Source: an uncultured delta proteobacterium | Lineage (GTDB): Bacteria; Desulfobacterota; Desulfobaccia; Desulfobaccales; 0-14-0-80-60-11 | Length of the DNA: 64,000 nucleotides | Assembly (NCBI GenBank): GCA_963812015.1 | Contig: CAWETI010000002.1 | Coordinates: forward strand, 576,001-640,000 | Direction: 5' to 3' | Part shown: in pieces, positions 1 to 64,000 of the stretch | Position numbering within the stretch: position 1 is the first letter of the stretch | How the letters are laid out: each line of letters opens with the position of its first letter | Program-made: the position numbers and the translations under genes | The notes under the pieces: model-generated | The model's database searches: none | Told to the model about the DNA's origin: nothing | Seen by the model: only the letters and a program-made list of their open reading frames with translations

Positions 1-1
1 C

Positions 2-346
2 ACCAATCTGGCGGACGAACTCATCTCCCTGGAGACCCCGGTGGGCGACGAAGGGGACCGCCTGGGGGACTTCATCCGCAATGACAAGGCGGTGTCTCCC
101 TACGAGGCTATTCTTGAGTCCCAACTCGGCGAAAAGACCGACACCATCCTGACCACCCTCACCGCCCGGGAAGAAAAGATCATGAAGATGCGGTTTGGGA
201 TCGGCGAGGAAGTGGAGCACACCCTGGAAGAAATCGGGCGGGCTTTTAAGGTGTCCCGGGAACGCATCCGGCAGATTGAGAAAAAGGCTCTCAAACGCTT
301 AAAGCATCCCACCCGCAAAGCGGCGCTGGAAGATTTTCTGGAATAA
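2..346 (+). CDS. RpoD-like sigma-70 factor, C-terminal part (5' end outside window)
   Basis: Frame is open from position 2 (TNLADELISLETPVGDEGD..LGDFI). Region 4 HTH is TLEEIGRAFKVSRERIRQIEKKALKRLKHP. Confidence 0.93.
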   Translation, partial: TNLADELISLETPVGDEGDRLGDFIRNDKAVSPYEAILESQLGEKTDTILTTLTAREEKIMKMRFGIGEEVEHTLEEIGRAFKVSRERIRQIEKKALKRLKHPTRKAALEDFLE

Positions 347-52258: not shown

Positions 52259-53371
52259 TTACTCAGAGCATATAACTGATTAACTTTTTATGCTGCATAT
52301 TGGACATGTTTCCCTTGGAAAAAGTTGGCGACTATGTCCGGTTTACATTGGCGACTCCGTAGGTAGCTCCTGACCTTCCCCATCAACTCCGTTTGATTAT
52401 TAGGCCGTTGACGCCCCAGGGCATTGGTTTTGACATCATGATTGAGCAATTCGTCCGGGTTGATCTCCGGACTATAGCTAGGTAGAAAAACTAACCGACG
52501 GCGCTCCTCATTTTCTTTGACCCAGTTTTTCACCTTGAGGGAGCGGTGGACCGGGTGACGGTCGATGATGAGATATACCCGGCGATCACTCTGACGGAGC
52601 AAGCGCCGGAGAAACTCTAAGAAAACTGGGGCAGTAAAACGCTCTTTGCAAACTATGAAGTTTAAGCGCCCCTGATTGGTAATGGCAGAAATCATGTTGC
52701 AGCCGAAGCGCTGACCCGTGGCCAAGATCACGGGCGTCTGTCCCTTGAGGCCATAAGAGCGCCCCACGGCATGGTCTGACCGCAGCCCCATTTCATCGCC
52801 CCAGTATATTTGGGTCTTCTCTCTCTGTGCCTGGCGGCGAATACTGGGATACTCTTTCTCAAGCCATTGCCGGACCTGCTCCGGATTTTGTTCCCAGGCC
52901 CGCCGCGCCGGTTTTTGCGGGGTGAAGCCCCAGCGTTTGAGATAACGGCCTACGGTCCAGACTGACACCTGTAAGCCAAACCGGCGTTTAATGAGGAGCG
53001 CTACCGCTTCCCGGGTCCAGAGGTAAAAAGGCAATTTGAGTTGTTCCGCATGATGATCAATGACCGTCTTGGCAATTTGTGCAGCCTGCCAAGGCAGGAG
53101 CTTTCCTCCTTTCGGACGGCCTTTCCGTTTCGATTTAAGCGCTCCTTGGCCCTGAAGGCCATACCCTTTCACCCATCCACAGATGATTTGCGGTGCAACT
53201 CCACAGAGCCTGGCAACTTCTCTCTGTTTTTTACCGTCCAATACCGCTTTAACGGCTAATTGGCGTAGATGTTCTTGCGCAGATGATGGAATGGAGCGAG
53301 CATCGACTTTTTGCATGCAATATCTATAGCATAAGCCCCTAAATAGTTAATCTATTTATTGCGTTGAGTAA
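52259..53371 (-). mobile_element. IS630-family insertion sequence
   Basis: TIRs ttactcagagcatataactgattaact / agttaatctatttattgcgttgagtaa flanked by TA at 52257-52258 and 53372-53373. Confidence 0.9.
52288..53316 (-). CDS. IS630 family transposase
   Basis: LWTR, GFTPQKP, WGDEMG, LIIDRHPVH, LPSYSPEINPDE. Confidence 0.94.
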   Translation of the reverse strand: MQKVDARSIPSSAQEHLRQLAVKAVLDGKKQREVARLCGVAPQIICGWVKGYGLQGQGALKSKRKGRPKGGKLLPWQAAQIAKTVIDHHAEQLKLPFYLWTREAVALLIKRRFGLQVSVWTVGRYLKRWGFTPQKPARRAWEQNPEQVRQWLEKEYPSIRRQAQREKTQIYWGDEMGLRSDHAVGRSYGLKGQTPVILATGQRFGCNMISAITNQGRLNFIVCKERFTAPVFLEFLRRLLRQSDRRVYLIIDRHPVHRSLKVKNWVKENEERRRLVFLPSYSPEINPDELLNHDVKTNALGRQRPNNQTELMGKVRSYLRSRQCKPDIVANFFQGKHVQYAA

Positions 53372-53919: not shown

Positions 53920-56199
53920 CTATTTCGTCTCATCCGGATAATATGTGGAATGAGTTTTATTATTGTAGTAATAATATCCTGCGTAGCCATCAGCGGTGTT
54001 GATGCCATTTAATACTGCACCCATTATTGGGGCATTAATCTGACTGAGAAGATGGTGGGACTGGATCACGGCTCTCTTAGCGGTGCAATTATTCTTAGTT
54101 ACCAGTATAACTCCATCGACCAGGACAGATATTATTCGGGCATCGGCAAATGCCAGAATAGGGGGCGTATCGATAATAATGTGGTTAAATTGCTTTCGGA
54201 GTTGCTTGATAAAATCCTTGAAGACCTCGGAATTCAATAGATTAACGGGGTTGGGGGGGTGGGTTCCAGCGCTTATGATCGTCAGATTGGGAATAGAGGT
54301 TAAGCGCAGGACCTCTTCAAGAGTGGCGTTGCCGGTTAGATAATTGGTTAGGCCCGGCTTTAAATCAAGTTGGAAAATTTGGTGCACCCTGGGTTTCCTC
54401 GTGTCACAATCGATCAGGACCACCTGATGTCCAGTCATCGCAAAGGACAGGGCCAGATTAGAGGCGACCATGGTCTTCCCTTCTGCAGGATTGGGGCTGG
54501 AAATCATGATGGCAGATGGGGGCCTTCCTGACATAGAGAACATGATAGAAGTATGCGTGTGGCGAAGGGCTTCGGCGATCCGATGCCTGGGATGTTTATA
54601 GACAACTAAGTCTAAATCTACCACATCCATGGGGCTCTGGTTACCGCGCTGCAAGCGGGGAAAATAACGAAATATTGCCGAAGAATCGGGCTTTCCCTGA
54701 TAGCTGACCATTATTCTGTGGCTGCCGTCTATCTTGGGCAAATTCCCCAGTGAAAATAAATTACAGGCTCGTTCCAAGTCATCGGGGGATTTGATGGAGT
54801 CATCTAAATGTTCTCTCAGCAGGGCCAAGCCAACGCCTAACATCAAACCAAGAAACGCACCCATCATGAGGTCGCGCCTCGTCTTGGGCGAAATCGGTAC
54901 ATCCGGAAGTGGCGCCGAATCGATGACCGAAATGTTGGAAGGCACCATGCTGCTGGCTATGTTGGTCTCTTTGACTCTGGACAACAGCGCCAGGTAGAAT
55001 TGCTCATTAGTCTGCGAATTCCGTTTCAGCATCTGATATTCAGTAAGATTATTCTGCAACTTGGACATCTGTTCTTTTTGGGCCGAGAAACTGTCACTCA
55101 AGAGGTTTTTGGTCCGCTTGGCCGCTTCATAATCAGCCTTTACACTCTCCGTCAGGCGCTGAATCTCAGATTGCAAGCGGCTCTGCAATTCGGCCAGGTG
55201 AGCCTTTGCTGCCTGCATTTCCGGATGGCCGCTAAGAAAAACTTTCTGCATAGATGAAACTTTGGCCTGTTGGGCCACCAACTGCAGACGCAGCGAGGAA
55301 ACTAAAGCATTATTGACAATCAGCGGGGCATTGGGGCCCTTATCCTTAATCTCCTGATATTGCGCCTCCTTCGCCATTTCCTCGGCTTGAGCTTTGGTGA
55401 GCAGAGCGTTCAGATCGATGAATTTATGGACAATTACATTGTCTTTGTCCTCTGAAGTATAAATATCGGTTTGTTGGCCAAATTTATAGAGCTCCTTCTG
55501 ACCCGCGTACACTTTGGCCGCCATTTCCTGGAGTTGTTTATCCAGCCACTTTCTCACCAGGGCAAAAGACTCACCGCGCCGGTCGATGGACAGGTACATA
55601 TATTCATTGGCGATGGCATTGACCACCCTTTGCGTTAGAAACTTGTCCGGAGATTGAAATGAGACTTCCAATAGATAAGAATTGCGTATTGGGGTGACTT
55701 TTAATTTGCTTAGAAAGGAGTTCACCATGCCCTCTTCAATGTCCGTTTCGCTTATGTCATGGTTTTTCACCCTAGCGGGTTTGAAATCCGGATGCTCCTG
55801 CAGCTTCAAAGCCTGGATGACGCGAAGGGCCAGGGAGCGGCTCTGCAGGATCTTGTACTGAGTCATCTGGAACTTCTCTAAGGAATCGTAATCCAGATAT
55901 CTGGACACTGGATCCACGCTCACCTGGGAGCCGGGGTTATCTTGGGTGATCTGCAACATCGCGGAGGTACTGAATATTGGCGTCCGCGTGTAAGTATAAA
56001 ACCCAGTAAAGAAGACTATACTGAGAAAGGTGATAATAATCAACCACTTGTGCTTCAACAGAACGTAGACATAGTCCCGGGCTGTTAATCTACCATAGGT
56101 ATTAAAATTATCATAGCCTAGCGATAAAGGCGTAGATAGAGATGATTGCGGAATAGGGGATTGTCCTACTGCTACAAGAGGCTGATCATGATTTGACAT
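53920..56199 (-). CDS. wzc: Polysaccharide co-polymerase / BY-kinase
   Basis: Two TMs flanking a coiled coil; SPNPAEGKT, IDCDTRKP, IIDTPP; C-terminal Tyr cluster GYAGYYYY...YY. Confidence 0.93.
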   Translation of the reverse strand: MSNHDQPLVAVGQSPIPQSSLSTPLSLGYDNFNTYGRLTARDYVYVLLKHKWLIIITFLSIVFFTGFYTYTRTPIFSTSAMLQITQDNPGSQVSVDPVSRYLDYDSLEKFQMTQYKILQSRSLALRVIQALKLQEHPDFKPARVKNHDISETDIEEGMVNSFLSKLKVTPIRNSYLLEVSFQSPDKFLTQRVVNAIANEYMYLSIDRRGESFALVRKWLDKQLQEMAAKVYAGQKELYKFGQQTDIYTSEDKDNVIVHKFIDLNALLTKAQAEEMAKEAQYQEIKDKGPNAPLIVNNALVSSLRLQLVAQQAKVSSMQKVFLSGHPEMQAAKAHLAELQSRLQSEIQRLTESVKADYEAAKRTKNLLSDSFSAQKEQMSKLQNNLTEYQMLKRNSQTNEQFYLALLSRVKETNIASSMVPSNISVIDSAPLPDVPISPKTRRDLMMGAFLGLMLGVGLALLREHLDDSIKSPDDLERACNLFSLGNLPKIDGSHRIMVSYQGKPDSSAIFRYFPRLQRGNQSPMDVVDLDLVVYKHPRHRIAEALRHTHTSIMFSMSGRPPSAIMISSPNPAEGKTMVASNLALSFAMTGHQVVLIDCDTRKPRVHQIFQLDLKPGLTNYLTGNATLEEVLRLTSIPNLTIISAGTHPPNPVNLLNSEVFKDFIKQLRKQFNHIIIDTPPILAFADARIISVLVDGVILVTKNNCTAKRAVIQSHHLLSQINAPIMGAVLNGINTADGYAGYYYYNNKTHSTYYPDETK

Positions 56200-56473
56200 C
56201 AGTTATACCGCCTAGTTACTTTATTATTGTGTAAAAAAAATGCTATAGTGTATCCGCCCCTGGGAATGGGGATATCAAGATCCTGATTTTTACCTCGCCC
56301 ACCAGCGGCATGCCGATCTCTCCCTGCCCGTTGATCCAAAGCGTCGGTCCAGGGTTTTCTGGCCGAGGATCTCGGCTACAAGTTGGTCTCACGGCCCCAC
56401 CTGAAAGTCTTTATCGTCATCTAGGCTCAGATACGGGTGGCTTGAAAGGGTTTGCTATATCCTGACAGATTGT

Positions 56474-57523
56474 TCAAATTGCGCTTCCCGCGGAATAGCT
56501 GATTCCGCCGCCCACCAACTGTTTCACATCCAACAAGAGCCTTCTTAAGATGCTTTCTGGAACATAGACCACGTCATTCTCTTTGAGGGGGATATCCAGC
56601 TCTTTCTTTGCTAAGATGGCATACAGGTCAAAAGGAATGGTCGTCGGGTTACCTTGCTCATCGATTCGTAGGATGGACGATATCTGGGGCTTGGCCAGCC
56701 CTGCTACAGGGCTACCCGCCACGGCGACGGCCTGGGAGACCGTCAATTTACCTTTGACTGGAACGGTACCCGGCTTATTCACCGAGCCCAGCACATATGC
56801 CAGGCCGCCGATCGGCACATTGATAACATCTCCAGCCTGGATGGGCACATTAAGCCTCCCGTCCTGGGAAAGACGCCGCAGATCAAGGACGATGGTCTCG
56901 GAGTTAAGGGCAAAGGATTGAGGAACGTCAGTTCCAGGCTTTAATTTTCCGCCCTCCCGCCCGGTACGCTGGGAGCGGATGATATGCACATAATCGCCGG
57001 CTTTTTCATCCAAGCCTCCGGCCAAGGCCAGCATCTCCAGGAGCGTGCGCGGCCCGATCATCTCATAGCTGCCCGGTTTTTTTACGGCACCGGTCACTGC
57101 CACTTGCTGGTGGCGATATTCTTTGACGAAGACGCTGACCTGGGGGTTCCTTAAATAATTAGTACCGTATAATTCCTGGAGGTGGCTTTCCACCTGCTGG
57201 GGTGTCAGCCCGGCTACCTGGACGAGCCCAATAAGGGGCATGGTAATATCCCCCGAGCCATTCACTCGGACGAAGCGCTGGAGCTCCTTCTGCCCATAAA
57301 CGCCGATTTCCAGGAGATCCTCAGGGCCCACCGTGTAGTCACGCGGAGTTCTCAGGTTGGCGGCAGCCCCCTGAGCTAAAATTTGCTGGTTGAGATCATC
57401 TTTTTTGTCTTTGGTCTGAAGTTGCGCTGATGCTTTTTGCGGGGTGATGGTTCCGGAAGAACTACAGCCGGCCAACCAGAAAAGGGCCACTAAAGGCATG
57501 AGCAGATATCGACAACGATCCAT
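56474..57523 (-). CDS. wza: Polysaccharide export lipoprotein (Wza-like, SLBB domains)
   Basis: Lipobox LAGC; YTVGPEDLL, G.ITMPLIG.VQVAGLT, V.G.V.KPG repeats. Confidence 0.88.
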   Translation of the reverse strand: MDRCRYLLMPLVALFWLAGCSSSGTITPQKASAQLQTKDKKDDLNQQILAQGAAANLRTPRDYTVGPEDLLEIGVYGQKELQRFVRVNGSGDITMPLIGLVQVAGLTPQQVESHLQELYGTNYLRNPQVSVFVKEYRHQQVAVTGAVKKPGSYEMIGPRTLLEMLALAGGLDEKAGDYVHIIRSQRTGREGGKLKPGTDVPQSFALNSETIVLDLRRLSQDGRLNVPIQAGDVINVPIGGLAYVLGSVNKPGTVPVKGKLTVSQAVAVAGSPVAGLAKPQISSILRIDEQGNPTTIPFDLYAILAKKELDIPLKENDVVYVPESILRRLLLDVKQLVGGGISYSAGSAI

Positions 57524-57644
57524 GATAAATTCCCTATAATTTAAGTTTTTTTAACAGAGATTATGCGGCCGCCGTGGTTGCTTCTGTCTAAAAGAGCTAT
57601 CTGGATTATCTTATTCTGAAGCTTAAATCCGGAAACACTGGCGG

Positions 57645-57656
57645 CTGGCTACCGCC
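57645..57656 (-). promoter_or_regulatory. ops-like antitermination element
   Basis: GGCGGTAGCCAG on the minus strand (ops consensus GGCGGTAGnnTG), between the NusG paralog and wza. Confidence 0.45.
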
Positions 57657-57675
57657 ATAAAGGCCCTGAAAACGC

Positions 57676-58190
57676 TTAGTGGTATGGTTCCAAAGCCTCC
57701 TCGGTCAAATCCACCGCCACCGCCCCGCAAGTCCACTGCCACCACGAGGCGACGCTGGCCGTCTTTTTTCCGCAGGATGAAGCCTGTGGCCCCGGCCAGG
57801 GGGCCCCCGAGGATGGTCACCCGCCTCCCCTTCACCAACTGGGACCACAAGGATCAAGCGTCAGGTTGCTGGTCACCATCCTTTGGAGTGAGTATACCGT
57901 CTCCGCCGGTACCGGGGTGCACTGTCGCTTAAGTCCCAAAATGCGATCACGCCAGTATTTTTAAGAATATCGTAATAGACCGGGGTGCTGAGGTCGGCAT
58001 GGACGAAGAGATAGCCCGGGAAGAGGGGGACTTCCAGGAGGCGGACCCGGTCCTGGCGGTGACTGCGCGCGGTGATGCGGGGGAGAAAGACCTCCAGACC
58101 CTGATTTTGCAGGTGCCTCTCCACCTTAGTTTCCTGGCGGCTGTAAGTGTGGATCACAATACCAGGCAAGGTCTCCGTGGGTAACTGCAC
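57676..58190 (-). pseudogene. NusG-paralog antiterminator (UpxY/RfaH/LoaP type), frameshifted
   Basis: WY / VIHTYSRQE..V...L...G.EVFLP...PLFPGYLFV (NGN), G.RV.I.GGPLAGATG (KOW) and AVAVDLTEEALEPYH* lie in different frames; about 3 frameshifts. Confidence 0.85.
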
Positions 58191-58548
58191 TGCTCTCAAT
58201 AGGCACCTTGGACACTCGCTTCGATTTGTATTCAGCCATTTTCCAAACAAATTGCCGTCCCGTAAATTACATAAGTAGTTTACCAATTACCTCAATAATT
58301 TAATATGTTATGGCTCAAACCATAACGTTCGGCCCCGATGACCTCCCCGAAACCCCTATCGGAAAAGTCGCCCTCCCCGGTTTTGCCCCCCCAACCCTGG
58401 AGCGACTATGGCTTCACCGGCTAACCCCCTGCTCTACCGGGAGGTGATGCGCCGCTCTTTCAATAATCACCACTGATGCCCCCGGCAGGACAATGAGCCT
58501 CAGAAATCTTGGCCCAGCAGCTCAGAATGACAAGAAAGAATTGAGGAC

Positions 58549-59736
58549 TTAAGTATTCCGCAAATATTTATTGTCCGGCGGCCGCCCATAATTGAGAGAC
58601 AAATCCCCTACCCGGGCCATGGCCTCATTCTCGCCGGCAAAGCGGGCTGGGAACTCCACCGACAGCCGCCGGGAAATCTCCCCCAGGGAGCTTTGGCCGT
58701 CCATCAACTCCAGGATGAACCGGTCGATGCGGCCATCCTCTGTCAGAACCGGCACATGGGTAGAGGCCCGTTGCTTCAGGCTAGCTGGAGATACGGGGGC
58801 GCCTAAAAAAGTGGATTGCCGGAACTCGGCCTTTAGCCGCCCCGGCTGGCTCTCGTCCAGGATGCGGGTATCCCAGCGCCAGAGATAATCATCTCCCACC
58901 AGGTTGGCGGCCAGGTCTACCGATACCACATCCCCCGCTTCCAAGTTCATGGGTTCCGGCCAGGGGAAAAAATATTTGGCATAAACCCCGGGGCTTTCGC
59001 CGGGGCGGTTGGAAAAGGATACGCCCGGAGCCAGAAGGGCGTCGAACCAGAGAACGATGCCGTGGGCCGTGCCGGCCCGGTCCGTGGTCCACGCTAATTC
59101 GCACCGGGCATCGGGCTCCGCCACCGTATAAAAATTTAAGGTCCACCAGCATTGGGCCGGGGCCAACATATCCTCCGGCGTTACCCGGGCCGAGTAACTT
59201 TGATTAATGGCCAGTGGCCACGCCGCCCGCAGATCCAGCCCGTAAACATCTTCCTTCCAGGCGGAGGTATGTTTCTCATACACCTCCGGCAATGCCACCA
59301 CCGCGGCCCAGAGGGTATCCTCTTGGGGAATCAAACGCCCTCCGGGAGCCAGAAAACGCTGCCGGGCATCCACAATAGTCGGGATTATTTGTTGAAAAAA
59401 AGGCAGCGACCCGTGCAGGTCGGAAACGATGACGTCCACCGGTTCCGGCAGGGTAATCCGGGTGGAAACGTCCTGGATGAAATGAATCCGCTCCGCGTAG
59501 CCGTTGGCGGCCGCCAGGTCCCGGGCCAGATCGAGGAGATCGCTGGGGTCGATGGCATAAACCCGGGCCGCGCCGCACTGGCAGGCCAACAGGGCGAACA
59601 TTCCGATGCCGGTGCCGATGTCCAGCACCACCGCCCCGGGGCTGACGGCTGAGCGCAGCGCCTCCCGGTAACCGGCCGTCCGCTTGGCATCGAGGATCAT
59701 CTGGCCGTAGCCATCGAGGGAATAAGTATGGGTCAT
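58549..59736 (-). CDS. PRMT-like SAM-dependent methyltransferase with C-terminal PqqD/RRE-like domain
   Basis: MILD..RT..Y..AL, VLDIGTGIG, GAARVYAID, VDVIVSD, ARQRFLAPGG.LIP, HG..LWFD; tail LTEDG...FILELMDGQSSLGEISRRL..EF. Confidence 0.75.
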   Translation of the reverse strand: MTHTYSLDGYGQMILDAKRTAGYREALRSAVSPGAVVLDIGTGIGMFALLACQCGAARVYAIDPSDLLDLARDLAAANGYAERIHFIQDVSTRITLPEPVDVIVSDLHGSLPFFQQIIPTIVDARQRFLAPGGRLIPQEDTLWAAVVALPEVYEKHTSAWKEDVYGLDLRAAWPLAINQSYSARVTPEDMLAPAQCWWTLNFYTVAEPDARCELAWTTDRAGTAHGIVLWFDALLAPGVSFSNRPGESPGVYAKYFFPWPEPMNLEAGDVVSVDLAANLVGDDYLWRWDTRILDESQPGRLKAEFRQSTFLGAPVSPASLKQRASTHVPVLTEDGRIDRFILELMDGQSSLGEISRRLSVEFPARFAGENEAMARVGDLSLNYGRPPDNKYLRNT

Positions 59737-60773
59737 ATTGACAGGCTTGATTTTTCCGCCCGATAGTCGCCGCCGGCTTGGAGATGGGAAAAATCCTCCA
59801 GGATGCTCTCGCAGAGTTGGTTCAGGTAGGCGGGTCCGGCCCGGGGAATCAGGCGGCGCACCGGCACCCGCTCCAGCAGGCGGCCCAGGACCTCGAACTC
59901 ACGGGCCCGCAGCTCCTTATCCAAAAACTTCGACCCATAGGTGTTGGCTATCAGCAGCAGCAGCCTTTCCTTCCCCGGGACCTCTTCCACCCGGGGACCG
60001 GCATCCTCCTGCCGCGCCCCCAGGATATAAATGGCCCCTAAGGGGAGAGGCCTAGACTGAAAGCAGTAGCCGGGGGCGGTAAGGTTGAGCCACCGCTTGT
60101 CCCATTCGGGATCCAAGGTATTATCCGAGATGACCGGAGGCAGGGCGGTGGGGGAGCCATAGAGATACACCACCGATTGGGGCCAGAGACAGACATTGGG
60201 GTCCCCCGGGAGCACCCAAAAGGTATCATCCTCCTCCTTAAGAACCGTGAGGTCATCGGTGAGCACCGGGTAGCCCAGGCGGGCAAAGGCCGCGGCGGTG
60301 GTGGATTTGCCGGCGCCCGGAAACCCCAGCACCGTTAGGGCGTGTCCTCCCGCGGCCACGGCGCTGCCGTGCAGACAGGGCGTCCCCCGCCAACGCAGGA
60401 GAATCCCCAGGACCGGGCCCAACAGGTAGGTGGAGAGATATTCCTGGGTCGCGCCTTCGGGCCCCGAGACCCAAAGACGCGACCCCGCAGAGTCCATGAC
60501 GAACTGGCAGCCGTCGCTGTATCTCAGCCGGAAGTATCGGCCTCCGGCCACCTGCCAGGCTCTATAGACGGGTTCGCCGCCCTGGTCATCCTCGAAGCCG
60601 GTTTGCCACAATTCCTGGGGCATCTCCAGGAACCGGCGCCACCATTCCGCCGTGCCCTCATGGCATATTTCCACATCTACCGCCGCTGGCTCCGCCTGGG
60701 CCACTAGACCGGGAATAGGCCGGTCGGACCTTAGCCGCAAGCCGAAGATGTTATAAAACAAAGACGCAACCAT
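59733..60773 (-). CDS. HPr kinase-like Ser/Thr kinase (lasso-cluster type)
   Basis: YNIFGLRLRSD, LHGSAV, Walker A GFPGAGKST, LTDD; 4-nt overlap with the methyltransferase. Confidence 0.85.
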   Translation of the reverse strand: MVASLFYNIFGLRLRSDRPIPGLVAQAEPAAVDVEICHEGTAEWWRRFLEMPQELWQTGFEDDQGGEPVYRAWQVAGGRYFRLRYSDGCQFVMDSAGSRLWVSGPEGATQEYLSTYLLGPVLGILLRWRGTPCLHGSAVAAGGHALTVLGFPGAGKSTTAAAFARLGYPVLTDDLTVLKEEDDTFWVLPGDPNVCLWPQSVVYLYGSPTALPPVISDNTLDPEWDKRWLNLTAPGYCFQSRPLPLGAIYILGARQEDAGPRVEEVPGKERLLLLIANTYGSKFLDKELRAREFEVLGRLLERVPVRRLIPRAGPAYLNQLCESILEDFSHLQAGGDYRAEKSSLSI

Positions 60774-60802: not shown

Positions 60803-60949
60803 CTAAGCTGCAGTTTTATTACGACCAGTCCAACCGCCAGTGTCAGTATTACCATTTCTACCTGTAGCCATGGTAATCTGCTTGACATTGCCGTAATCCA
60901 TCACCTGGGGGGGGTGATAAGCCAGCCGTTCTTTTTTCGTGGATTTCAT
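60803..60949 (-). CDS. Lasso peptide precursor, 48 aa (not in ORF track)
   Basis: MKSTKKERLAYHPPQVMDYGNVKQITM-ATGRNGNTDTGGWTGRNKTAA. RBS AGGAGG lies 6 nt upstream. Leader has YxxP, G and Thr at -2; core has Ala1 and Asp9. Confidence 0.88.
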   Translation of the reverse strand: MKSTKKERLAYHPPQVMDYGNVKQITMATGRNGNTDTGGWTGRNKTAA

Positions 60950-61157: not shown

Positions 61158-63002
61158 TTAGGAGCGAATCACTGATTGCAGAAATTCCTCCAGACCCTTG
61201 ATGCAAGTCATATCGCGGTAGAGCCTGCCCTTAGTTGCTGCAATTTTCTGGCTTATTTGCTCCCGCCAGCTCTCGTCCAGGGCAAGACGCGCGGCCACCG
61301 CCACGTATTCTTCCAAGCTGGTGACGATGGTCTCCGTGACGCCCATCATGGTCAAAAAAGCCATACTGTGCCTTCCCCGCATAAGATTCCCGGGCAGCGT
61401 AACCACGGGCAGGTCACAGGCAAGGGCTTCTAAGGTGGTGTTGCCTCCGGACCATCCAATGCTGTCCAGGAAGATGTCGGACAGGCAATTCAGGGCGTGA
61501 TATTGCGTTGAATCCAGCCGCGGTAAAAGGGTAACATAATCTTCGGAATTTAAGCCATAATTCCCGAATGCCTGATGCAGACGCCGCTGAAATTGGTTAT
61601 TTACGAAAACCGAGTCTCCTTGAATAAAGGCGAATTGACAGTTGCCTACTGCTTTGGCGAGTTGCGGGAAGACGGCATCGTATTGCGGCAGATACTTGAA
61701 TAGGGACTGTGGGCAAAAAAATAAAATACCATTCGACTTAAGGTCGAAACTGGCCCGGCTCAGCCCAGTCTCCGGGAATTCCCGGGGGCTGTAAAATGTG
61801 GAGAGATTGGGCAATTTCACCAGTTTTTCGGTGTAATGCGCTTCAGCTCCCGGAGGCTCCATCAGCTCGCTACTCAGATAGTAGTCCATGGTAGGTAAGC
61901 CTGAGGTAACCGGGTGGCCCCAGGACACGCACTGGATAGGCGCAAGCTTTAATGAAGCCAGCCTGAGAGTCAGGTAATCCATTCCCACTTCAGGATAGAT
62001 CAATATGTGCAGCCGGTCCCCGCGGATCATCCGTGCCAGTTTTGGTAATGAAAAAACGTCTTCCACCAGGCGGACAAAACTCTGCCTCGCCTGCCCGGTT
62101 TCATTGTCCTTTCTAGTTCCTGTGTGGTAGCCGTATAGCTGAAACCGCCGTTTATCTAAATTCTCCCCCCAACCCTTTGCGAGAATCTTCCAAACGGAGT
62201 GTTCCCATAAGAAACCTGAGACAATCCCGACTCGGCAAGGTTCGACCGGATTGGAGGGCGGCATCGAAGGGGCTTGGGCCCATTTCGGGTATCTGGCTGC
62301 CTGAATGCGACAAACCAATTTACCATAGAGACTCTGAAGATCGCGGTCATTGAGTCCCTGATATGCCAAGTAAAAAGGAAAGCAACTCCCCACAGCCTGG
62401 GCCGCCTCCTTAATCTCGGCCGAACTATCTAGCCTGATGGTTTGGCACAGATGCTCCAGTTCCTTTTGATAGCATCTCCGGGTTTGCGCAATCTCGCTCG
62501 CCTGACCGTAAAGAATAGGAGTTTGAGCTATACAAAGATTGAGCCGGGCTCTCACCGAGTCAGGTTTTATAGCCAGGGCCTTTTTTAAACAGTCGAGTGC
62601 CTCTTGCTGTTCTCCTAGGTTAGAGAGAATTGCCCCCAATCTATTGTAATGCTTGGCATTATGAGGATCAAGTTCTATCGCCTTTCTATAGCAAGCGATG
62701 GATAAGCTGGCTAACTTTGGATCTTCGGTTGCCAAAAGAGCCTCCCCTAGTTTACAGTGGGCAGAAACCTTCTTCGGTTTAATTTTAATAGCTTGGCTAT
62801 AACAACGCATAGCCTCAGATAATTTTGCCAGCTCCATTAAAACATCGCCCAGACGAACAAAGGTATCATAGGTTGGTTCTATTTCAATTACTTCGCGGTA
62901 AGTTTTCTCAGCTTCTCGAAAGTTTCCGGATCGGCAGTCTTGCAGAGCTTTTTTTAATCTTTCTCTTATATCAGGTGATAGTTTCCTAATTTCGTGGGAC
63001 AT
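61158..63002 (-). CDS. TPR-containing GT41 family glycosyltransferase (OGT/SPINDLY-like)
   Basis: N-terminal TPRs; RVGIVS..L.EHSV, LAPIQCVSWGHPVTSGLPTMDYYLS, YTEKLVKLP, FKY.P, DIFLDS..WSGGNTTLEAL...LPVVT. Confidence 0.87.
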   Translation of the reverse strand: MSHEIRKLSPDIRERLKKALQDCRSGNFREAEKTYREVIEIEPTYDTFVRLGDVLMELAKLSEAMRCYSQAIKIKPKKVSAHCKLGEALLATEDPKLASLSIACYRKAIELDPHNAKHYNRLGAILSNLGEQQEALDCLKKALAIKPDSVRARLNLCIAQTPILYGQASEIAQTRRCYQKELEHLCQTIRLDSSAEIKEAAQAVGSCFPFYLAYQGLNDRDLQSLYGKLVCRIQAARYPKWAQAPSMPPSNPVEPCRVGIVSGFLWEHSVWKILAKGWGENLDKRRFQLYGYHTGTRKDNETGQARQSFVRLVEDVFSLPKLARMIRGDRLHILIYPEVGMDYLTLRLASLKLAPIQCVSWGHPVTSGLPTMDYYLSSELMEPPGAEAHYTEKLVKLPNLSTFYSPREFPETGLSRASFDLKSNGILFFCPQSLFKYLPQYDAVFPQLAKAVGNCQFAFIQGDSVFVNNQFQRRLHQAFGNYGLNSEDYVTLLPRLDSTQYHALNCLSDIFLDSIGWSGGNTTLEALACDLPVVTLPGNLMRGRHSMAFLTMMGVTETIVTSLEEYVAVAARLALDESWREQISQKIAATKGRLYRDMTCIKGLEEFLQSVIRS

Positions 63003-63116: not shown

Positions 63117-63998
63117 TCAACACTCAAATTTTGCCAGCCAGTAATTGAGGCTTAAGGGGCGCAGGTTTATCCACAGCCGACCCGGGTCGGTCTCGGTCGT
63201 CGCCGGGGGAACCGCGGCGCGCCGGACATAGGCGGCCAGCCCGTCGCATGGCTCAAAGTTATCCAGCCACCGGGAATCGGGGCGGCGGACCAGGGCCAGT
63301 TCGGGATGGTCGACCATGGGCGTTTTGGGACGGCGGCGGATAAGATCCGGCAGACGCTCCTTGGCCAGTTCCCGGAGCATGATCTTATCCACGCACCAGG
63401 GCAGTGGCGGCAGGCTCAGGGCGTAGGTGAGAAGCCGCACATCCAGCAGGGGATGGCGAAACTCCAGCGGCCCCCCCATAACCCCGGCGTCATACTCCAT
63501 TTCGAAACACCCTTGCAAAAAAGACCCGGCCAGAAAGGCGCAGGCTTCGGGGCGCACCGGGGGCTGGGGCGCCGACCTTCGCTTGAAAAGTTGCCACCGG
63601 GCAGGCAGGTCCAGCCGGGCGCTCAGGTCCGGGTCAAGCCACTGGGGGAACCCGTCCTCAGGCTGGCTCCGGCTGTTGCGAGTGCGCCAGCGATCCAGGG
63701 CGGTCCTGAAACCAACTTGCGGCATATGGCCGTAAAGGAAGAGACTGCGCCCCATTCCCGTTACCAGTGGGGCCAGATGCAGGCTCCGGGCCAACTTGTA
63801 GATATACGATTTGGAGGGGTAAAGAATCTCGTCGCCGCCATGGCCGGTGAGGACTACCCGGCTGTGGATAGCGGCCAGCTTGATCATGTCCAACCCGGCT
63901 GCTGCTCCACGGGGATCGTGGCAGGGCTCCGGTTCGCTCAGGTCGGCCTGGCGCTCAAACAGAGCATAATCATCCTGGGGCAGAAACTCGATAGGGAC
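63117..63998 (-). CDS. Asparagine-synthetase-like lasso cyclase, C-terminal part (5' end outside window)
   Basis: Frame is open to the window edge; VLTGHGGDE, EFRHPLLDVRL, DK.MLRE...LPD.IRRRPKTP; located in a cluster with a lasso precursor. Confidence 0.8.
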   Translation of the reverse strand, partial: VPIEFLPQDDYALFERQADLSEPEPCHDPRGAAAGLDMIKLAAIHSRVVLTGHGGDEILYPSKSYIYKLARSLHLAPLVTGMGRSLFLYGHMPQVGFRTALDRWRTRNSRSQPEDGFPQWLDPDLSARLDLPARWQLFKRRSAPQPPVRPEACAFLAGSFLQGCFEMEYDAGVMGGPLEFRHPLLDVRLLTYALSLPPLPWCVDKIMLRELAKERLPDLIRRRPKTPMVDHPELALVRRPDSRWLDNFEPCDGLAAYVRRAAVPPATTETDPGRLWINLRPLSLNYWLAKFEC

Positions 63999-64000
63999 TT

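What the first reader, a model, noticed from the sequence alone, without database searches (positions are those of the whole stretch)
58549..59736. Bacterial PRMT-fold methyltransferase with rewired active site and RRE-like tail
Seen: the motif order mirrors eukaryotic protein arginine methyltransferases. However, the double-E loop reads SDLHGSLPFFQ (D and Q where E and E are expected) and the THW loop position reads GVY. A C-terminal ~55-aa segment resembles PqqD/RRE winged helices. Inference: it is a precursor-directed methyltransferase, acting either on the core Arg residues or, given the altered residues, on another acceptor such as Asn, Lys, a phosphate or the C-terminus.
Basis: partly seen in the sequence, partly recalled or inferred. 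Interest (0 to 1): 0.8.

Follow-up and report, generated by a model that had tools for sequence, protein, structure and literature searches.

The report
PRMT-fold methyltransferase of lasso clusters
This gene encodes a bacterial methyltransferase built like the eukaryotic arginine-methylating enzymes but lacking their arginine-binding residues; it belongs to a widespread, apparently unstudied family in knotted-peptide (lasso) gene clusters and probably methylates a lysine (or, in sister clusters, a methionine) near the peptide's end rather than arginine.

Summary
The 395-aa gene is intact and has the full PRMT fold (Z 34 to PRMT2 over 308 residues; PrmA Z 13). The Arg-binding residues are lost family-wide: first Glu to Asp (109 of 117), second Glu variable, THW His absent (0 of 117). 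The tail is three helices with weak PqqD likeness and no RRE sheet in the model. The gene ends a lasso cluster (RRE, peptidase, peptide arginase-like gene, cyclase, GT41, precursor, kinase); 48 of 54 relatives of its subtype lie beside lasso genes, against 1 of 18 canonical double-Glu relatives. Arg is not the family's target: 51 of 85 cognate cores have none. Lys or Met precedes the tail Thr/Ser in 67 of 75 clusters with the enzyme and 4 of 18 without; all 6 cores free of Lys and Arg are Met-rich. This is not significant after correcting for kinship (2 well-supported contrasts). Best reading: it methylates core Lys18, beside the likely phosphosite Thr19 (about 0.45); rivals are phosphate, ornithine or C-terminal methylation. 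I found no paper on the family. The scan noted it before in three other genomes.

The parts
58549..59736 (-). PRMT-fold SAM-dependent methyltransferase, 395 aa, single copy in the genome
58807..59736 (-). Rossmann SAM domain, arm and PRMT beta-barrel (residues 1-310)
   Evidence: aligned range 1..310 to PRMT2/3/CARM1, Z 33-34
59392..59424 (-). Double-E loop equivalent SDLHGSLPFFQ (res. 105-115): D106 conserved, H108 (R in most relatives), Q115 variable
58981..58989 (-). THW loop equivalent GVY (res. 250-252); family x-[IV]-Y
58582..58746 (-). C-terminal three-helix tail (res. 331-385), weakly like the helical half of PqqD, no beta-sheet in the model
59733..60773 (-). HprK-related peptide kinase, 346 aa, with His135, GxxGxGKS and Asp-Asp; stop overlaps the methyltransferase start
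   Evidence: motif as described in PMC9266682 and PMC10368454 (passages)
60803..60949 (-). Lasso precursor, 48 aa: leader YxxP..G..T, predicted 21-aa core with ring Ala1-Asp9, Arg4, Arg16 and tail Lys18-Thr19
   Evidence: NCBIfam lasso_cyano/lasso_leader weak hits below cut-off; alignment with 54 cognate precursors; ring and cleavage site inferred
60812..60817 (-). Core Lys18-Thr19: proposed methyl acceptor and proposed phosphosite
   Evidence: inference
61158..63002 (-). TPR plus GT41 glycosyltransferase inserted between cyclase and precursor
63117..64000 (-). 3' part of the lasso cyclase (610 aa, runs to 64949). Beyond the window, in window numbering: peptide arginase-like+TPR 64946-66538 (-), B2 peptidase 66585-67088 (-), B1 RRE 67033-67317 (-), NTP_transf_5 nucleotidyltransferase 67535-68683 (+)

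Best explanation
A tailoring methyltransferase of a kinase-type lasso peptide pathway. It binds SAM in a normal PRMT site (inferred from fold and conserved R19, D106, glycine-rich motif I), and a long unbranched side chain from the precursor's C-terminal tail enters the PRMT substrate channel. Having lost the second Glu and the THW His that clamp a guanidinium, and kept one Asp, it methylates the epsilon-amine of core Lys18, next to Thr19, which the adjacent kinase probably phosphorylates; His/Arg108 may read that phosphate. In sister clusters where Met stands at this position the same channel would give S-methyl-methionine. Shown: fold, residue changes, cluster membership, sequence pattern of cognate cores. 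Inferred: activity, acceptor, number of methyls, order of steps, role of residue 108 and of the tail. Confidence that it is a lasso tailoring methyltransferase with a non-Arg acceptor is about 0.8; the figure below is for Lys18.
For: Fold and site. Context: 48 of 54 subtype-A loci have a kinase and lasso genes within the fetched flank, 1 of 18 canonical-type loci do. Acceptor: in 75 clusters with an S-D-x-R/H-G type enzyme the residue before a tail Thr/Ser is Lys 58, Met 9, Arg 5, other 3; in 18 clusters without it Arg 9, other 5, Lys 4; Lys or Met in the last 8 residues 74 of 75 against 8 of 18 (the one exception looks frameshifted). 0 of 85 cognate cores lack both Lys and Met, and all 6 cores free of Lys and Arg hold 2-5 Met. 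Paralogous precursors of one cluster alternate K-T and M-T (L036, L039; L267). The query and its same-genus relative share only K-T among tail nucleophiles. Three close-kinase genomes with K-T cores and no enzyme within 1.5 kb were then searched whole: all 3 hold a subtype-A gene, 2 inside the cluster. Met sulfonium in a lasso tail has precedent in longipeptin A (PMC10664482, passages).
Against: Kinship: only 2 well-supported independent contrasts (8 on all branches) and no significant sign test (4 contrasts), so the enrichment may be inherited. K-T occurs without the enzyme (4 of 18; also G838). 5 of 75 have Arg at that position, and nine E-D-x-R-G variant clusters mostly carry Arg near the end (8 of 9). 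'Without enzyme' rests on local flanks for 10 metagenome loci, and 12 more were dropped as uncertain. A conserved basic residue at 108 fits an anionic acceptor at least as well as an amine; I had no coordinates to see where it points. One enzyme family doing both N- and S-methylation is an assumption. A few subtype-A genes have no lasso gene near (L009, 10 kb each side). No activity data.
Confidence: 0.45

Rival explanations
1. It O-methylates the phosphate that the kinase puts on Thr19, giving a methyl-phosphodiester cap (like the kinase-methyltransferase WbdD of O-antigen termination; recalled, not checked).
For: Tail Ser/Thr in 75 of 75 clusters with the enzyme; gene order kinase-methyltransferase, with overlapping stop/start here and one in-frame kinase-methyltransferase ORF in 80 loci (L053); R/H108 conserved in 113 of 117; the second subtype (DQIG) has Arg in the THW loop instead.
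Against: The Ser/Thr is just as constant without the enzyme (18 of 18), so it belongs to the kinase; does not explain the Lys/Met bias; the nucleotidyltransferase, present in 31 of 54 loci, is reported to act on the same phosphate in pseudomycoidin (PMC9266682, passages); the same subtype occurs in clusters whose cores end in K/R-R-x without tail Thr (L011-L014); an Asp at 106 suits an amine better (general knowledge).
Confidence: 0.17
2. Here the acceptor is ornithine made from Arg4/Arg16 by the cluster's peptide arginase homologue (with or without Lys18), so the first reader's Arg positions are hit indirectly.
For: The gene at 64946-66538 matches peptide arginase 8BRP (E 4e-8) and carries recognisable forms of the three motifs given in PMC12703449 (passages); the two other loci with this gene and a called precursor (L089, L157) also have the methyltransferase and Arg in the ring; arginase followed by N-methylation is reported for enteropeptins (same paper).
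Against: The arginase domain was found in only 3 clusters besides the query's own among all fetched loci, so it cannot be the family's rule; arginase activity here is untested.
Confidence: 0.1
3. It makes the C-terminal methyl ester, as StspM/LasF do, by convergence on a PRMT scaffold.
For: Every core has a C-terminus, so one chemistry would serve both subtypes, including Lys-free cores ending Cys-Leu; basic residues in both rewired sites; precedent in lasso peptides (PMC9266682).
Against: Does not explain the Lys/Met bias; last residues vary freely and distance from K-T to the end varies from 0 to 5 residues.
Confidence: 0.1
4. It is still an arginine methyltransferase acting on Arg4 or Arg16 with an altered pocket.
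For: PRMT fold; this core has two Arg; canonical double-Glu enzymes with the same tail do sit by two lasso clusters with Arg-rich cores (L264, L265), and the E-D-x-R-G variant goes with Arg-bearing tails (8 of 9).
Against: Both Glu in 3 of 117 and His-Trp in 0 of 117; 51 of 85 cores have no Arg; same-genus orthologous cluster has no Arg.
Confidence: 0.06
5. The acceptor is not the lasso peptide (a cluster protein, a small molecule, or the polysaccharide made by the neighbouring export operon).
For: The cluster abuts rfaH-wza-wzc here and Wza or Wzc hits lie in 9 of 80 related loci; stand-alone copies exist (L009); bacterial arginine methyltransferases of small-molecule pathways exist (SznE, PMC12637814, passage).
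Against: Position inside the precursor-kinase operon in most loci and the pattern in the cores.
Confidence: 0.07

Closest known systems
Eukaryotic protein arginine methyltransferases (Hmt1/PRMT1, PRMT2, PRMT3, CARM1)
   Same: Rossmann SAM domain, arm and beta-barrel over about 310 residues, 21-25% identity, Z 33-34; Met13, Asp16 and Arg19 align with the conserved Met, Asp and Arg of the PRMT N-terminal helix.
   Different: Double-Glu loop is D-x-R/H...variable, THW is x-[IV]-Y; extra three-helix tail; bacterial, in a RiPP operon; cognate peptides often have no Arg.
Canonical bacterial PRMT-like proteins (E...E, THW/SW) found in the same searches; SznE named in PMC12637814 as a bacterial arginine methyltransferase (its fold not checked here)
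   Same: Same family by profile; nearest outgroup on the tree.
   Different: They keep the Glu pair and are near lasso genes in only 1 of 18 loci; subtype A forms its own side of a 98-support branch (87 rows, FastTree).
Kinase plus nucleotidyltransferase lasso pathways: paeninodin, pseudomycoidin (PsmK, PsmN), bsf cluster of Bradymonas (PMC9266682, PMC10368454; passages)
   Same: Split B1/B2, cyclase, HprK-like kinase, NTP_transf_5 gene.
   Different: No methyltransferase is described for them in the passages read; their phosphosites are the C-terminal Ser or ring Ser3, here a Thr two residues from the end is inferred.
Known lasso methyltransferases: StspM/LasF (C-terminal ester), TceM/LihM (PIMT, aspartimide), LopH (proposed Met S-methyltransferase of longipeptin A)
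   Same: SAM-dependent tailoring of lasso peptides; LopH's product is a tail Met sulfonium, as proposed here for Met-bearing sister clusters.
   Different: Described as O-methyltransferase-like, PIMT-like and MTHFR-SAM-domain-like, not PRMT-fold; none is reported to methylate Lys. Their sequences were not compared directly.

Membership tests
PRMT (protein arginine methyltransferase) | Rossmann SAM domain followed by PRMT beta-barrel | tested here: met
   PRMT_C 38.6 bits > 27; Z 34.1, rmsd 2.5, 308 aligned to PRMT2
PRMT (protein arginine methyltransferase) | Two Glu of the double-E loop | tested here: not met
   D106/Q115 in the query; both Glu in 3 of 117 homologues
PRMT (protein arginine methyltransferase) | THW loop | tested here: not met
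   GVY in the query; His-Trp in 0 of 117
PRMT (protein arginine methyltransferase) | Methyl transfer to peptidyl Arg | not testable with these tools
   indirect only: 51 of 85 cognate cores lack Arg
PrmA (L11 methyltransferase; the usual automatic label) | Full-length match to PrmA models and fold | tested here: not met
   Pfam PrmA passes (32.4 > 22) on residues 25-136 only; NCBIfam prmA 23.4 against cut-off 183; L11 methylase Z 13.4 over 121 residues
RRE / PqqD domain (tail) | Three-helix bundle | tested here: met
   H333-344, H351-361, H369-383; same in the tail-only model
RRE / PqqD domain (tail) | Three-stranded beta-sheet before the helices, which forms the leader cleft (feature recalled) | tested here: not met
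   model gives helices 309-312, 317-323 and coil there, pLDDT 88-97; Pfam match limited to profile 21-46 of 67
RRE / PqqD domain (tail) | Profile score above family cut-off, or structural match to an RRE | tested here: inconclusive
   14.1 bits against 23.4, but PqqD is top family for 21 of 53 tails and PqqD 3g2b top PDB hit at E 0.035
RRE / PqqD domain (tail) | Binds the leader peptide | not tested
Lasso peptide gene cluster | Precursor with YxxP..G..T leader and ring acid at 7-9(10) | tested here: met
   below cut-off; P14, G20, T26, D36 invariant in 55
Lasso peptide gene cluster | RRE (B1), peptidase (B2), cyclase (C) | tested here: met
   PqqD 48.8, Transglut_core3 79.6, Asn_synthase 111.6 bits, all above cut-off
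StspM/LasF, TceM/LihM, LopH families | Sequence or fold relationship | not tested
   no direct comparison made; papers describe other folds

The most novel reading that the evidence does not exclude
The PRMT scaffold has been retooled in bacterial lasso pathways into a set of side-chain methyltransferases whose pocket tracks the substrate: S-D-x-R/H-G enzymes turn Lys (to a multiply methylated amine) or Met (to a sulfonium) into a fixed cation beside a phospho-Thr, standing in for the Arg that enzyme-free clusters encode there; D-Q-I-G enzymes S-methylate the Cys of C-terminal Cys-Leu cores; E-D-x-R-G and canonical forms act on Arg.
Probability: 0.2. Interest if true: 0.82.

Novelty: new variant of a known kind. 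Interest (0 to 1): 0.62.

Why it matters
PRMT-fold enzymes are known to me as arginine methyltransferases. A large bacterial family (1556 hits among 8000 scored candidates; many phyla) with the Arg clamp removed, each copy beside its short peptide substrate, is a natural series for testing what sets acceptor choice in this fold. It predicts a lasso modification I could not find in print (Lys methylation beside a phospho-Thr, possibly Met sulfonium by the same enzyme), and it corrects a common automatic label (PrmA or PRMT1). The test is cheap: four small genes in E. coli and MS/MS.

Tried and rejected
Recalled ApyS as a PRMT-like RiPP enzyme: wrong, the paper calls it MppJ-like (PMC11117315, passages). 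Tail-only model (pLDDT 77, no alignment): no Foldseek match at E<=0.001 and best VIA Z 5.1 to unrelated helical proteins, no RRE listed; inconclusive for so small a domain. Atlas search with the tail: nothing at 0.9 or above; leads were PKMT winged-helix clusters at 0.79, also 8 of 53 tails in Pfam. Longer-protein search for fusions gave 5 hits; the two cyclase fusions look like frameshift or assembly chimeras and are not used. The first count of enzyme-free clusters (22) was too loose: whole-genome search found the gene further away in several cases, so 12 metagenome loci were dropped and 8 genome-checked ones added. A clean rule 'E105 goes with Arg, S105 with Lys' failed: 3 of 9 E-type clusters have K-T/S and one S-type cluster (L291) has R-S cores. 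Phylogenetic sign tests could not reach significance. Complex prediction with the precursor was not available, so nothing was folded. No RNA holder was listed. Literature searches that found no paper on this family: 'lasso peptide'+'arginine methyltransferase' (1 paper, unrelated), +kinase+nucleotidyltransferase+methyltransferase, RiPP+PRMT, +'lysine methylation', PRMT-like/double-E, lasso+methyltransferase from 2023 (30 of 139 listed). The library lacks most subscription papers and I read no supplements, where genome-mining tables may list this family.

Full report
Observation. The ORF at 58549-59736 (minus strand, 395 aa) is intact and single-copy in a 99.9% complete genome. It has a class I SAM domain and a PRMT_C domain above the Pfam cut-off. 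Its best solved relatives by sequence are yeast Hmt1 and other PRMTs (E 1e-27). A model from a 117-sequence alignment (pLDDT 94) matches PRMTs over residues 1-310 with Z 25-34, while the next fold, including L11 methylase, scores 13.5 or less over about 120 residues (Foldseek agrees). The HMMER alignment puts SDLHGSLPFFQ on SEWMGYFLLYE and GVY on THW. Across 117 of the 120 listed homologues D106 is kept (109 D, 8 E), 108 is Arg or His (113), 115 varies, 251 is Ile/Val (111) and 252 Tyr/Phe (112). Three have both Glu; none has His-Trp. The rewiring is a family trait, not decay of this copy.

The tail. Residues 331-385 form three helices. PqqD is the commonest Pfam match for 53 tails (21 at E<=0.1) and the top PDB profile hit (E 0.035), but for the query only helices 1-2 match and the score is under cut-off. 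The model has no sheet before the helices, and the tails do not align to a profile of B1 proteins from the same loci. It is best called a PqqD-like helical half; leader binding is untested, and a separate B1 gene exists.

Surroundings. In the genome the operon reads B1, B2, peptide-arginase-like+TPR, cyclase, TPR+GT41, precursor, kinase, methyltransferase, with an NTP_transf_5 gene divergent upstream and an rfaH-wza-wzc polysaccharide operon downstream. The kinase stop overlaps the methyltransferase ATG. Of 80 GTDB loci fetched with the family profile, 54 are of the query's subtype (A), 7 of a D-Q-I-G subtype (B), 18 canonical, 1 partial. A kinase and lasso genes lie in the flank for 48 of 54, 6 of 7 and 1 of 18. 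Of the six subtype-A exceptions four are short contigs, one keeps the nucleotidyltransferase and one (L009) stands alone. Subtype A is one side of a 98-support FastTree branch, and B is a 96-support group among the canonical forms; deep order is not resolved. One locus has kinase and methyltransferase in a single frame.

What it methylates. I called precursors by leader motif in all loci. Arg cannot be the family's acceptor: 51 of 85 distinct cores beside subtype-A genes have none, including the cluster of the only relative, of 60 searched, with a close cyclase (same genus). To get clusters without the enzyme I anchored on the kinase (80 metagenome loci; three phylum samples of 401 genomes). 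A Ser/Thr in the last six residues is present with or without the enzyme (75 of 75, 18 of 18), so it belongs to the kinase or core machinery. The residue before it differs: Lys 58, Met 9, Arg 5, other 3 with the enzyme; Arg 9, other 5, Lys 4 without (where several Ser/Thr occur the script prefers Lys, then Met, then Arg, in both groups). No cognate core lacks both Lys and Met, and the six without Lys or Arg carry 2-5 Met; by reading the list, 3 of the 18 enzyme-free cores lack both. In the leader, Lys columns exchange with Arg and not Met, whereas this tail column holds 45 Lys, 5 Arg, 4 Met of 55. As a forward check I searched 33 genomes whose kinase had no enzyme within 1.5 kb. All three close-kinase genomes with a known K-T core had a subtype-A gene (two in the cluster). 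Of ten with other known tails, none had the S-D type, two had an E-D-x-R-G variant, three a canonical form and five nothing. One distant-kinase genome with a K-T core (G838) had nothing. Against all this: kin share both traits, and only 2 well-supported independent contrasts exist, so the association is suggestive, not proven. 12 uncertain enzyme-free loci were dropped, and about a third of the enzyme-bearing clusters were found by anchoring on the enzyme itself.

Mechanism. Shown: fold, site changes, operon, core pattern. Inferred: SAM binds as in PRMT1; D106 holds an amine where the first Glu holds a guanidino nitrogen; loss of the second Glu and His leaves a more hydrophobic channel for Lys or Met; residue 108 may bind the neighbouring phosphate. 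For this cluster that points to Lys18 of the K-T-A-A tail (0.45). The basic residue at 108 keeps phosphate (0.17) and C-terminal carboxylate (0.10) methylation alive. The arginase homologue (E 4e-8 to 8BRP, motifs as in PMC12703449) could turn Arg4/Arg16 into ornithine and supply further amines (0.10). Direct Arg methylation (0.06) and a non-peptide acceptor (0.07) are unlikely. Timing on the linear precursor is assumed from other lasso tailoring enzymes (PMC9266682).

Comparison with what is known. It works like a PRMT in scaffold but fails two defining features, so it should not be filed as one, nor as PrmA. The pathway resembles pseudomycoidin and bsf clusters plus an extra enzyme. Lasso methylations in the papers I read are C-terminal ester, aspartimide and one Met sulfonium, by enzymes of other described folds. 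For all eight papers (PMC9266682, PMC11117315, PMC10368454, PMC11285071, PMC12703449, PMC13352647, PMC10664482, PMC12637814) I saw term-matched passages only, no supplements. Nine searches showed no study of this family. WbdD, the RRE cleft and PRMT pocket roles are recalled.

Verdict. Real, intact, and a new variant of a known kind: a widespread PRMT-fold family retooled for lasso peptides, acceptor unproven. Earlier notes of this scan reached a similar general reading on three other genomes; they are not evidence. Interest 0.62.

Noticed in passing
window numbering 64946-66538 (-), outside the window; L081:7946-9538: Peptide arginase (OspR/8BRP)-like domain fused to TPRs inside the lasso operon, with recognisable metal-ligand motifs; homologues in L089, L157 and L174/L285. 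The passages read of the 2025 arginase paper do not mention lasso peptides. Suggests Arg-to-ornithine conversion in a lasso peptide.
   Followed up: partly
window 61158-63002 (-): TPR-GT41 (OGT/SPINDLY-like) glycosyltransferase with lower GC, between cyclase and precursor; may glycosylate the peptide or be an insertion.
   Followed up: no
L047, L049, L052, L069, L080, L289: Second rewired subtype (D-Q-I-G loop, Arg-rich THW loop, same tail) whose precursors end in Cys-Leu, several with Met runs; candidate S-methyltransferase. L286 and L056 of this subtype lack the Cys.
   Followed up: partly
L264, L265 (and L008 second copy): Canonical double-Glu PRMT-like genes, two with the same tail, beside lasso clusters; L264 and L265 have Arg-rich cores ending S-R: candidate true peptide arginine methyltransferases in bacteria.
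   Followed up: partly
L258-L261, L263, L292-L295 (phylum of G064): E-D-x-R-G variant of the enzyme; 8 of 9 cognate cores have Arg in the last six residues.
   Followed up: partly
L053:6607-8766: Kinase and methyltransferase in one 719-codon open frame; single case, may be a lost stop.
   Followed up: partly
window 53920-58286 (-): rfaH-wza-wzc polysaccharide export operon directly downstream of the lasso operon; Wza or Wzc hits also lie in 9 of 80 related loci. The rfaH frame ends early (137 aa) with an overlapping frame at 57623-57850, possibly a frameshift.
   Followed up: no
window 52288-53316 (-): IS630-like transposase (by eye, not searched) inserted in the polysaccharide region.
   Followed up: no
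L223-L226: Cyanobacterial loci with this kinase and paired lasso-type leaders whose cores start Q/A-V-G-G-S-G-G-F and are Thr-rich, without a ring Asp/Glu at 7-9 and no cyclase within 1.5 kb.
   Followed up: no
window numbering 69842-72064 (-), outside the window: Carbamoyltransferase with TPR tail near the cluster, beyond an IS remnant; similar genes near L019 and L080.
   Followed up: no
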